64,000 nt of DNA from Escherichia phage OES_C-1. The notes below the pieces were generated by a model. That model was not told where the DNA came from. It made no database searches and worked only from the letters and a program-made list of their open reading frames with translations. Made by a program: the position numbers and the translations under genes. Location: the sequence record PQ553088; one strand, written 5' to 3'. This document shows positions 12,578 through 12,697 of this stretch, in pieces; the stretch's first letter is position 1; every line of letters begins with the position of its first letter.

Positions 12578-12623
12578 ATCAGTCCCTAATAAAGAACTGA
12601 GCGTCTCACGACGAGTCATAAAT

Positions 12624-12697
12624 TGGTGGGGAGTGATGGAGTCGAACTCACATCATCAGATTGGAAGTCTGAGGTAATGCCATTATACGATATCCGC
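12624..12697 (-). tRNA. tRNA-Gly-like (anticodon UCC) with non-canonical 3' half; possible hybrid or pseudo-tRNA
   Basis: 5' two-thirds fold canonically (acceptor GCGGATA, anticodon arm TCAGA-CTTCCAA-TCTGA); after the T-loop TTCGA the T-stem and acceptor 3' strand (CCATC, ACTCCCC) do not pair with the 5' strands. Confidence 0.5.

What the first reader, a model, noticed from the sequence alone, without database searches (positions are those of the whole stretch)
12578..12697. tRNA-Gly(UCC)-like gene with a canonical 5' two-thirds but a mismatched 3' end, next to a SegB-like homing endonuclease
On the minus strand the sequence GCGGATATCGTATAATGGCATTACCTCAGACTTCCAATCTGATGATGTGAGTTCGA folds as the acceptor 5' strand, D-arm, a perfect anticodon arm (TCAGA/CTTCCAA/TCTGA, anticodon UCC) and T-stem 5' strand plus loop. 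The following CTCCATCACTCCCCACCA cannot pair with them: the T-stem 3' strand CCATC does not match GTGAG, and the acceptor 3' strand ACTCCCC does not match GCGGATA (it would match GGGGAGT). The join falls at the conserved T-loop TTCGA, as expected if recombination between the T-loops of two tRNA genes, or repair after endonuclease cleavage, fused the 5' part of tRNA-Gly to the 3' part of another tRNA and deleted what lay between. Only Arg, Leu, Gln and this hybrid remain, where T4 is recalled to have eight tRNAs.
Basis: partly seen in the sequence, partly recalled or inferred. Interest (0 to 1): 0.6.

Follow-up and report, generated by a model that had tools for sequence, protein, structure and literature searches.

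The report
Chimeric Gly/Tyr tRNA pseudogene beside SegB
A T4-like phage lost about 425 bases between two neighbouring tRNA genes, leaving a dead half-glycine, half-tyrosine tRNA remnant next to a homing endonuclease that targets that part of tRNA genes; it is a tidy, real example of a known kind of genome erosion, not a new system.

Summary
The window is Escherichia phage OES_C-2, a Tequatrovirus.

- **What it is:** On the minus strand, 12697-12648 is the 5' part of tRNA-Gly(UCC), 12647-12642 is GTTCGA (T-loop bases shared by both parents), and 12641-12624 is the exact 3' end of tRNA-Tyr(GUA).
- **Origin:** Intact relatives (PST, GRNsp7, BP32) read Gln-Leu-Gly-Pro-Ser-Thr-Ile-Tyr-segB-Arg. One 425-430 bp deletion between the two T-loops gives the window's sequence.
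- **Function:** Six of 20 cloverleaf pairs are broken. The Rfam tRNA score is 27.8 bits, against 65.8 for intact Gly, and ARAGORN does not call it. It is a pseudogene.
- **Neighbour:** The adjacent gene is a SegB orthologue, 97% identical to T4 SegB. Published work shows SegB binds GGTTCRANTCC in the T arm and cuts after CCAR.
- **Distribution:** The junction occurs in 3 of 50,697 phage records, all from one study, and in two different genomic backgrounds.
- **Second case:** Searching 225 predicted T-loop junctions found one more chimera, Tyr/His in Shigella phage CM8.

That SegB cleavage triggered the deletion is plausible but unproven. Interest is modest.

The parts
12648..12697 (-). Part derived only from tRNA-Gly(UCC): acceptor 5' strand, D arm, anticodon arm (anticodon TCC at 12665-12663), variable region and most of the T-stem 5' strand
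   Evidence: Identical to tRNA-Gly of GRNsp7 and SH-1. T4, PST, BP32 and RB51 differ only by C/T at gene position 19, window 12679.
12642..12647 (-). Crossover hexamer GTTCGA, the last T-stem base plus T-loop bases shared by tRNA-Gly and tRNA-Tyr; the junction lies somewhere within it
   Evidence: It is the only stretch common to both parents at the join and the only 6-nt T-loop/T-loop repeat pair in the parental region.
12624..12641 (-). Part derived only from tRNA-Tyr(GUA): rest of the T-loop, T-stem 3' strand, acceptor 3' strand, discriminator A and CCA
   Evidence: CTCCATCACTCCCCACCA is identical to the 3' end of tRNA-Tyr in RB51, PST, SH-1 and GRNsp7.
12578..12623 (-). segB leader, continuous with the tRNA-Tyr 3' flank of intact relatives. 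It holds a 9-bp hairpin (12600-12579) that buries the Shine-Dalgarno sequence. The predicted SegB cut point, after CCAA, lies between 12623 and 12622.
   Evidence: Identical to the post-Tyr leader of BP32, with one difference in PST. Hairpin (leader fold -14.1 kcal/mol, z -2.57). The cut-point rule comes from PMC2330249 and was not tested here.
11912..12577 (-). segB, a GIY-YIG homing endonuclease gene (221 aa)
   Evidence: 97% identical to T4 SegB; Pfam GIY-YIG, 26.8 bits against a 22.6 cutoff; ORF listed.
11833..11908 (-). tRNA-Arg(UCU), intact, immediately after segB as in the intact relatives
   Evidence: ARAGORN; Rfam 66.1 bits.
12703..12789 (-). tRNA-Leu(UAA), intact, immediately upstream of the chimera
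   Evidence: ARAGORN; Rfam 59.3 bits.
12790..12863 (-). tRNA-Gln(UUG), intact, first gene of the cluster
   Evidence: ARAGORN; Rfam 67.4 bits.
11776..12789 (-). 1,014-bp tract (Leu, chimera, segB, Arg and 57 nt beyond) that is 100% identical in Shigella phage SH-2, whose flanks differ
   Evidence: One search gives the first mismatches at 12790 and 11775. One search shows SH-2 equals the window at all six sites where BP32 differs inside the tract. Searches show SH-2 has a 609-nt ORF where the window has tRNA-Gln.

Best explanation
The feature is a chimeric tRNA pseudogene. An ancestor had the common T-even layout Gln-Leu-Gly-Pro-Ser-Thr-Ile(CAU)-Tyr-segB-Arg. It lost about 425-430 bp when the T-loop of tRNA-Gly was joined, in register, to the T-loop of tRNA-Tyr at the shared hexamer GTTCGA. 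This removed Pro, Ser, Thr and Ile and inactivated both Gly and Tyr. What remains has the Gly D and anticodon arms, but its T stem and acceptor stem cannot close, so it should not be processed or charged as a tRNA. It is probably transcribed as part of the cluster transcript and simply forms the 5' leader of the segB mRNA.

Shown here: the two parental identities, the deletion, the loss of cloverleaf pairing, and the presence of the same allele in two genomic backgrounds.

Inferred, at roughly 0.45 as a sub-claim: the trigger was a double-strand break made by the phage's own SegB. SegB binds the T-arm motif GGTTCRANTCC and cuts about 20 bp downstream, after CCAR, in most tRNA genes of this cluster. 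Resection from a break between Gly and Tyr would then allow annealing at T-loop microhomology.

Also inferred: because SegB homing copies segB together with its flanks, the deletion allele can spread to co-infecting phages and displace intact tRNA clusters.
For: - The 5' 56 nt equal tRNA-Gly and the 3' 24 nt equal tRNA-Tyr.
- Both flanks are collinear with PST, GRNsp7 and BP32, with a single gap of 425-430 bp.
- ARAGORN makes no call. Rfam gives 27.8 bits, against 65.8 for intact Gly. Six of 20 cloverleaf pairs are broken and the cloverleaf energy is 0.0 against -16.1 kcal/mol.
- The neighbouring SegB is 97% identical to T4 SegB.
- PMC2330249 reports a 27-bp SegB site starting GGTTCRANTCC, cleavage after CCAR, and mapped sites in T2L Gln, Leu, Gly, Pro, Ser, Met, Tyr, Asn and Arg. 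It also reports that T4's own tRNA genes are cleavable, and that homing gives 99.6% segB inheritance while excluding about 1,250 bp of recipient tRNA genes.
- The chimera keeps AGTTCGACTCC (10 of 11 motif positions) and CCAA.
- A 1,014-bp tract carrying the chimera is identical in SH-2, which has different flanks.
- An independent second chimera exists: Tyr/His in phage CM8, joined inside the 11-nt GGTTCGACTCC. It deletes tRNA-Asn, which is SegB's preferred target.
Against: - Nothing in the sequence requires SegB. The junction lies in the recognition core, not at the cut point, and any deletion between two tRNA genes necessarily spans SegB sites.
- The 6-nt Gly/Tyr repeat is not the longest available. 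A 13-nt Pro/Ser repeat and a 9-nt Gly/Thr repeat exist. Only 6 of 38 repeat pairs of 6 nt or more in the parental region are T-loop/T-loop, so a T-loop junction is not statistically striking.
- My survey looked only for T-loop junctions, so CM8 cannot be used to argue a T-loop preference.
- All three carriers come from one study, and there are no hits in IMG/VR, JGI metagenomes or GTDB genomes.
- Expression and processing were not tested.
Confidence: 0.8

Rival explanations
1. The same deletion and the same dead chimera, but SegB played no part. The join arose by replication slippage or illegitimate recombination between short direct repeats, and lying next to segB is coincidental because segB always sits inside this cluster.
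For: The parental region holds 38 direct-repeat pairs of 6 nt or more. Illegitimate recombination is an accepted source of T4-type genome diversity (PMC2993671). segB-like sequence is present in many cluster-bearing Tequatrovirus records, so co-occurrence carries little information.
Against: SegB demonstrably breaks DNA in these genes, including the phage's own copies in vitro. In CM8 the deleted gene is SegB's preferred target and the join lies exactly in its core motif. Slippage alone would be expected to favour the longer repeats available.
Confidence: 0.35
2. An ectopic homing event. SegB from a Tyr-segB-Arg donor cut a co-infecting recipient at tRNA-Gly. The resected end primed on the donor's tRNA-Tyr T-loop by microhomology and copied Tyr-3'/segB/Arg, creating the chimera during gene conversion instead of by deletion within one genome.
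For: SH-1, from the same study, lacks segB, has 11 tRNAs and carries the same Gly 'C' variant as the window. tRNA-Gly is a mapped SegB site, and homing replaces recipient tRNA genes. segB cassettes sit after different tRNAs in different phages: Gly in RB51 and CM8, Tyr in PST, BP32 and T6, Ile in T4.
Against: Known donors also carry Gly, Pro, Ser, Thr and Ile, so ordinary homologous invasion would be available and a microhomology jump would be unnecessary. GRNsp7 shows that the Gly 'C' variant and Tyr-segB already coexist in one genome, so a deletion within one genome is the simpler explanation.
Confidence: 0.1
3. An assembly or sequencing artefact: the real phage has an intact cluster and the junction was created in silico or by chimeric library molecules.
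For: A sister record (SH-1) is flagged UNVERIFIED. No independent occurrence was found.
Against: The shared repeat is only 6 nt, far below any assembler k-mer, so repeat collapse is implausible. No reference genome contains the junction, so gap filling could not import it. Three separate assemblies carry it, in two different contexts. An analogous chimera exists in CM8, an unrelated study from Ireland. The authors' tRNA counts fit a shortened cluster. Cross-sample contamination could, however, explain the shared tract in SH-2.
Confidence: 0.03
4. A functional but unusual tRNA-Gly(UCC) that tolerates mismatched stems.
For: The D arm and anticodon arm are perfect, CCA is encoded, the Rfam score is only 1.2 bits below the cutoff, and the isolates' paper appears to count it as a tRNA.
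Against: Three of 7 acceptor pairs and 3 of 5 T-stem pairs are broken, and the cloverleaf has no net stability. The mismatched part is identical to another gene's 3' end, so it was not shaped by selection on this molecule. The discriminator changes from U to A and pair 2-71 is lost; from my recollection of E. coli identity rules, not tested here, both are GlyRS identity elements. The intact gene in relatives scores 65.8 bits.
Confidence: 0.02

Closest known systems
T4 tRNA gene cluster with SegB homing endonuclease (Brok-Volchanskaya et al. 2008, PMC2330249)
   Same: Same locus, same gene order logic (tRNAs - segB - tRNA-Arg), and an endonuclease 97% identical. The SegB recognition core (T-arm motif) and the CCAR cut signal are present in the chimera. 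Homing is known to remove recipient tRNA genes.
   Different: T4 and the phages studied in that paper have whole tRNA genes on both sides of segB. A tRNA/tRNA chimera at the T-loop is not described there. Here six tRNAs are lost or inactivated and only Gln, Leu and Arg survive.
tRNA pseudogenes counted in T4-like genomes by tRNAscan-SE (Nolan et al. 2006, PMC1524935)
   Same: Non-functional tRNA-like sequences inside phage tRNA clusters.
   Different: Those were only tallied (3 in one genome and 1 in another). No origin or parental genes were given. Here both parents, the breakpoint and the deleted interval are defined.
Classical deletion mutants of the T4 tRNA region and deletions between short direct repeats in T4 (1970s-80s genetics; recalled from memory, papers not held in the library)
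   Same: The tRNA cluster is dispensable in laboratory hosts and can be deleted. T4 deletions often end in short repeats.
   Different: I could not verify whether any classical deletion had T-loop to T-loop endpoints. The present case is a natural isolate allele found in several phages.
Tyr/His chimera in Shigella phage CM8 (MK962750, found here)
   Same: Same cluster, same type of in-register T-loop fusion, also unannotated and not called by ARAGORN, and also in a genome with a SegB-like gene.
   Different: Different parents (Tyr 5', His 3'), 11-nt microhomology equal to the SegB core motif, a deletion of about 269 bp removing tRNA-Asn, and not adjacent to the SegB-like gene.
Integrase-mediated insertion of mobile elements into tRNA genes, where the element replaces the 3' part of the tRNA (general knowledge, recalled)
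   Same: The junction is inside the tRNA gene, often at the T-loop or anticodon loop, and the 3' part comes from another source.
   Different: Those elements carry a matching 3' end that restores a working tRNA, and they use a site-specific recombinase. Here the 3' end is from a different tRNA, function is lost, and no integrase is involved.

Membership tests
Canonical tRNA (Rfam RF00005) | Score at or above the family gathering threshold (29 bits) | tested here: not met
   27.8 bits. The three true tRNAs in the window score 59-67 bits and intact Gly scores 65.8 bits.
Canonical tRNA (Rfam RF00005) | Closed 7-bp acceptor stem and 5-bp T stem | tested here: not met
   Acceptor 4/7 and T stem 2/5. 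ARAGORN makes no call.
Canonical tRNA (Rfam RF00005) | D arm, anticodon arm with 7-nt loop, conserved T-loop sequence | tested here: met
   All are inherited intact from tRNA-Gly; the T-loop is TTCGACT.
T-even tRNA-Gly(UCC) | Full-length identity to the T4/T-even tRNA-Gly gene, including the 3' strand TTCTCATTATCCGCTCCA | tested here: not met
   The 5' 56 nt match. The 3' 18 nt are replaced by CTCCATCACTCCCCACCA.
Chimeric tRNA pseudogene made by inter-tRNA deletion | 5' part identical to one tRNA gene and 3' part identical to a different, downstream tRNA gene | tested here: met
   Gly 5' and Tyr 3'.
Chimeric tRNA pseudogene made by inter-tRNA deletion | Intervening genes absent and both flanks collinear with undeleted relatives | tested here: met
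   Pro, Ser, Thr and Ile are absent. There is a single gap of 425-430 bp against PST, GRNsp7 and BP32.
Chimeric tRNA pseudogene made by inter-tRNA deletion | No mature, charged RNA product | not testable with these tools
   Needs tRNA-seq or northern analysis.
SegB (GIY-YIG free-standing homing endonuclease of T-even phages) | GIY-YIG catalytic domain and close identity to T4 SegB | tested here: met
   Pfam PF01541, 26.8 bits; 215/221 residues identical to T4 SegB.
SegB (GIY-YIG free-standing homing endonuclease of T-even phages) | Location inside the tRNA cluster, immediately upstream of tRNA-Arg | tested here: met
   segB at 11912-12577 and tRNA-Arg at 11833-11908, as in T4.
SegB (GIY-YIG free-standing homing endonuclease of T-even phages) | Site-specific cleavage of tRNA genes and homing in mixed infection | not testable with these tools
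   Shown for T4 SegB only (PMC2330249).
SegB recognition site | Core GGTTCRANTCC followed about 12-16 nt later by CCAR | tested here: inconclusive
   The chimera has AGTTCGACTCC (10/11) and CCAA. The T2L Gly site, with 2 mismatches, is cleaved in vitro. Cleavage of the chimera itself was not tested.

The most novel reading that the evidence does not exclude
SegB does more than carry neighbouring tRNA genes along with it. By cutting the phage's own tRNA genes it provokes T-loop to T-loop collapses of the cluster. Because homing copies segB with its flanks, the resulting tRNA-loss allele is then driven into co-infecting phages that still have full clusters. This would be a selfish element spreading a deletion of its host's accessory genes. 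The identical 1,014-bp chimera-segB-Arg tract in OES_C-2/3 and SH-2, and the CM8 chimera that removes SegB's preferred target gene, would be traces of this process.
Probability: 0.3. Interest if true: 0.55.

Novelty: new member of a known kind. Interest (0 to 1): 0.3.

Why it matters
There are three practical consequences.

1. **Annotation.** The chimera sits just under the Rfam cutoff. The isolates' paper reports one more tRNA than ARAGORN finds, so it was probably counted as a tRNA. Phage tRNA inventories, which are now used to infer codon adaptation and escape from tRNA-targeting defences, can be inflated by such remnants.

2. **Phage biology.** This phage keeps only three of the nine or more tRNAs of its close relatives. 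The loss is one clean event with both parents identifiable. OES_C-2 alongside an intact relative such as PST or BP32 therefore makes a near-natural pair for measuring what the T-even tRNA set is worth on different hosts.

3. **Evolution of homing-endonuclease loci.** Two independent in-register T-loop fusions, in a cluster whose resident endonuclease recognises the T arm, give a concrete hypothesis. It can be tested by amplicon sequencing: that SegB erodes as well as spreads the tRNA cluster.

None of this is a new kind of system.

Tried and rejected
- **Patch conversion.** I first suspected that a Tyr patch had been converted into a Gly-segB context like RB51's, because the base after CCA is A in the window (as after Gly) but T after Tyr in GRNsp7. 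I rejected this because PST and BP32 have CCAATTTATGACTCG after Tyr.
- **ViennaRNA MFE as the cloverleaf reference for tRNA-Gly.** This was wrong, because the MFE is not the cloverleaf. I replaced it with an explicit cloverleaf.
- **Hand-written cloverleaf for class II tRNA-Tyr.** The string was mis-registered and is discarded. For CM8 I rely on the Tyr MFE-based count (4 acceptor and 2 T-stem pairs broken) and on ARAGORN's silence.
- **Junction libraries.** The first library lost most entries, or seeded on intact genes. The trimmed 225-junction library at a loose E-value returned 110 records, mostly allelic variants such as Ser alleles resembling an Asn 3' end. Rerunning at E<=5e-9 gave the clean answer.
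- **SH-2 as a simple BP32 backbone with a converted tract.** Rejected: outside the tract the three genomes are an ordinary three-way mosaic.
- **Exact scans for the junction** in IMG/VR, JGI metagenomes and GTDB genomes found nothing.
- **Literature.** The T4 genome review and the classical tRNA-deletion papers are not in the library. No paper describing a T-even tRNA chimera was found.
- **Statistical argument for a T-loop preference.** Not supportable: only 6 of 38 repeat pairs are T-loop/T-loop, and the survey was designed to find only T-loop junctions.

Full report
**1. The observation**

ARAGORN finds three tRNAs in the 64-kb window: Arg 11833-11908, Leu 12703-12789 and Gln 12790-12863, all on the minus strand. 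It finds nothing at the finding. Rfam at gathering score gives the same three, at 59-67 bits.

With permissive settings the Rfam tRNA model aligns end to end at 12697-12627 but scores only 27.8 bits, below the 29-bit cutoff. Non-pairs are flagged at three acceptor and three T-stem positions. Against an explicit cloverleaf, 14 of 20 pairs form and the cloverleaf energy is 0.0 kcal/mol, compared with 20 of 20 pairs and -16.1 kcal/mol for the intact gene. The intact tRNA-Gly of phage PST scores 65.8 bits. The free fold of the chimera is no better than shuffled sequence (z -0.52). The rest of the stated range, 12623-12578, is the leader of the next gene.

**2. Source of the window and the two parents**

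The window is Escherichia phage OES_C-2 (PQ642263), a Tequatrovirus. It is 100% identical over a 20-kb test stretch and over the locus.

Up to and including GTTCGA, the chimera equals the tRNA-Gly(UCC) of T-even phages. It carries the 'C' variant at gene position 19, which is shared with GRNsp7 and SH-1. From GTTCGA onward it equals the 3' end of tRNA-Tyr(GUA).

In PST the sequence after tRNA-Tyr runs ...GGTTCGACTCCATCACTCCCCACCAATTTATGACTCG..., which is base-for-base the window's sequence up to and through the start of the leader. BP32 differs at one base.

The intact layouts are:
- PST and GRNsp7: Gln-Leu-Gly-Pro-Ser-Thr-Ile(CAU)-Tyr-segB-Arg. T6 shares at least the Tyr-segB junction.
- BP32: the same, except that another endonuclease-like ORF sits in place of Gln.

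One deletion of 425 bp (PST, GRNsp7) or 430 bp (BP32) between the two GTTCGA hexamers converts those layouts into the window's. Window coordinates are: Gly-only 12697-12648, shared hexamer 12647-12642, Tyr-only 12641-12624.

**3. The neighbour**

The ORF at 11912-12577 encodes 221 aa with a GIY-YIG domain. It is 215/221 identical to T4 SegB, so it is SegB, not merely SegB-like.

The T4 enzyme has been characterised (PMC2330249):
- It recognises a 27-bp site whose 5' part is GGTTCRANTCC, the TψC stem-loop motif.
- It cuts mostly just after a CCAR at the 3' end of the tRNA gene.
- It has mapped sites in T2L Gln, Leu, Gly, Pro, Ser, Met, Tyr, Asn (the preferred site) and Arg, and it can cut T4's own tRNA genes in vitro.
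- In T4 x T2L crosses, segB is inherited by 99.6% of progeny, and about 1,250 bp of T2L sequence including four tRNA genes is excluded.

The chimera retains AGTTCGACTCC (10 of 11 core positions) and CCAA. By that rule a cut would fall between 12623 and 12622, right where the segB leader begins. In different phages the segB cassette begins right after the 3' end of a different tRNA: Gly in RB51 and CM8, Tyr in PST, BP32 and T6, Ile in T4. This is consistent with insertion at SegB cut points.

**4. Distribution**

A 48-nt probe across the junction matches fully in only 3 of 50,697 phage records: OES_C-2, OES_C-3 and Shigella phage SH-2. About 200 others match only the Tyr half. The three have adjacent accession numbers and come from one wastewater study sequenced by Illumina (PMC13072308). 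Exact scans of IMG/VR, JGI metagenomes and GTDB genomes found nothing.

SH-2 has a different context. A 609-nt endonuclease-like ORF replaces tRNA-Gln, and 4-5% divergence begins 57 nt after tRNA-Arg. In between, 1,014 bp (window 12789-11776) are identical to the window. Inside this tract SH-2 agrees with the window at all six sites where BP32 differs. Outside it the three genomes are an ordinary mosaic. So one chimera allele sits in two backgrounds, as expected if it has moved by recombination, possibly by homing. Contamination between samples of the same sequencing batch cannot be excluded for SH-2.

SH-1, from the same study, lacks segB and has 11 intact tRNAs.

**5. Is this a recurrent process?**

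I built every deletion-type junction (5' of tRNA X through GTTC, then 3' of a downstream tRNA Y) from the alleles in six reference clusters. Each was trimmed so that intact genes could not seed a megablast hit, giving 225 junctions.

At a loose threshold most hits were allelic variants. At E<=5e-9 only two junction types exist in the phage collection:
- Gly/Tyr, in the three records above. This served as the positive control.
- Tyr/His, in Shigella phage CM8 (MK962750 and its RefSeq copy).

CM8 reads GGGGAGTTATCC...GGGTGGTTCGACTCC|CATCGGTCACCCCA between tRNA-Ile and tRNA-Arg. The stretch is unannotated and not called by ARAGORN. Relative to SH-1 it is a deletion of about 269 bp that removes tRNA-Asn. 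The join lies in the 11-nt GGTTCGACTCC shared by Tyr and His. That is the longest repeat in the region and a perfect SegB core motif. CM8 is from an unrelated study (chicken meat, Ireland).

The survey is limited to T-loop crossovers and to the alleles I used.

**6. Mechanism**

Shown: a single in-register deletion between T-loops, producing an RNA gene that cannot form a tRNA.

Inferred: the trigger. I favour, at about 0.45, a double-strand break by the resident SegB somewhere between the Gly and Tyr T-loops. Five candidate sites lie there. Resection and annealing at the T-loop microhomology would follow. The supporting points are that SegB is known to cut these genes, that the left breakpoint lies about 20 nt upstream of the Gly cut point, and that in CM8 the deleted gene is the preferred SegB target.

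SegB-independent slippage or illegitimate recombination is nearly as likely, at about 0.35. The parental region has 38 repeat pairs of 6 nt or more, of which only 6 are T-loop/T-loop, and the Gly/Tyr hexamer is shorter than other available repeats.

An ectopic homing event with a microhomology jump is possible (about 0.1) but unnecessary, since known donors also carry the intervening genes. An artefact is unlikely (about 0.03): a 6-nt repeat cannot mislead an assembler, no reference carries the junction, three assemblies have it, and CM8 shows the same phenomenon independently. A functional odd tRNA is very unlikely (about 0.02).

**7. Consequences**

The phage retains Gln, Leu and Arg only. 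The chimera RNA, if transcribed with the cluster as in T4 (PMC2330249), becomes the 5' extension of the segB message. A 9-bp hairpin at 12600-12579 buries the Shine-Dalgarno sequence two nucleotides before the AUG at 12577. This echoes the translational occlusion proposed for T4 segB.

The isolates' paper reports four tRNAs for the OES_C phages and three for the poorest Shigella phage. Each count is one more than ARAGORN finds, so the chimera was probably counted.

**8. Comparison and novelty**

The closest known system is the T4/T2L tRNA cluster with SegB homing. tRNA pseudogenes have been tallied in T4-like genomes (PMC1524935), and endonuclease breaks plus illegitimate recombination have been proposed as general drivers of T4-type mosaicism (PMC2993671). 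Classical T4 genetics isolated deletions of this dispensable cluster. That is from memory; I could not retrieve those papers.

I found no description of a T-loop to T-loop tRNA chimera in T-even phages. The kind of event is familiar, though, so I rate this a new member of a known kind.

**9. Verdict**

Interest is 0.3: a neat, fully resolved example, and a second case found, but not surprising to a specialist.

The most novel reading still open is that SegB both creates and spreads tRNA-loss alleles (probability about 0.3, interest about 0.55 if true).

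Noticed in passing
L009 (Shigella phage CM8, MK962750) 2445-2541: A second chimeric tRNA pseudogene: the 5' part of tRNA-Tyr fused to the 3' part of tRNA-His inside the shared 11-nt GGTTCGACTCC, deleting tRNA-Asn (about 269 bp relative to SH-1). It is unannotated in GenBank and not called by ARAGORN.
   Followed up: yes
window 12579-12600 (minus strand): A 9-bp hairpin in the segB leader buries the AGGGA Shine-Dalgarno sequence, and the AUG at 12577 follows two nt after the stem (leader fold -14.1 kcal/mol, z -2.57). 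It resembles the ribosome-binding-site occlusion proposed for T4 segB, although the T4 leader sequence is different.
   Followed up: partly
window 12577-12619 (minus strand): The GenBank record of OES_C-2 annotates segB as a 708-nt ORF starting at the ATG at 12619, four nt after the chimera's CCAA. SH-2, PST and T4 use the 666-nt, 221-aa form starting at 12577. The longer form is probably an over-extension.
   Followed up: partly
L004 (SH-2) 1762-2370; L006 (BP32) 1807-2415; L009 (CM8) 752-1360: A 609-nt ORF, labelled HNH or F-TflIV-like endonuclease in two records, sits exactly where tRNA-Gln is in the window and ends 6 nt before tRNA-Leu. It has no Pfam hit. It may be another endonuclease cassette that displaced a tRNA gene.
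   Followed up: partly
window 11466-11816 (minus strand): The 116-aa ORF after tRNA-Arg (no Pfam hit) is labelled a trna.2-type protein in CM8, a T2L-style gene. T4 has the small RNAs rnaD and rnaC at this position. So the window combines a T4-type segB with a T2-type downstream flank.
   Followed up: no
window, somewhere between 12900 and 30000: The offset between window coordinates and PQ642263.1 is 60018 at 12.6 kb but 60017 at 30-50 kb. This implies a 1-nt length difference between the window and the GenBank record that I did not locate.
   Followed up: no
L005 (PST) 2441-2527: Rfam at gathering threshold did not report the intact class II tRNA-Tyr that ARAGORN calls. A miss by one tool is therefore not enough on its own to call a tRNA dead.
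   Followed up: no
L006 (BP32) 4343-4436: ARAGORN calls an unusually long (94-nt) tRNA-Lys(UUU) downstream of the cluster in BP32. It is not annotated in the record and I did not examine it.
   Followed up: no
L008 (SH-1, PQ642266): The sister isolate SH-1 lacks segB and has 11 tRNAs including Asn, SegB's preferred target. Its GenBank record is flagged UNVERIFIED and carries no annotation.
   Followed up: partly
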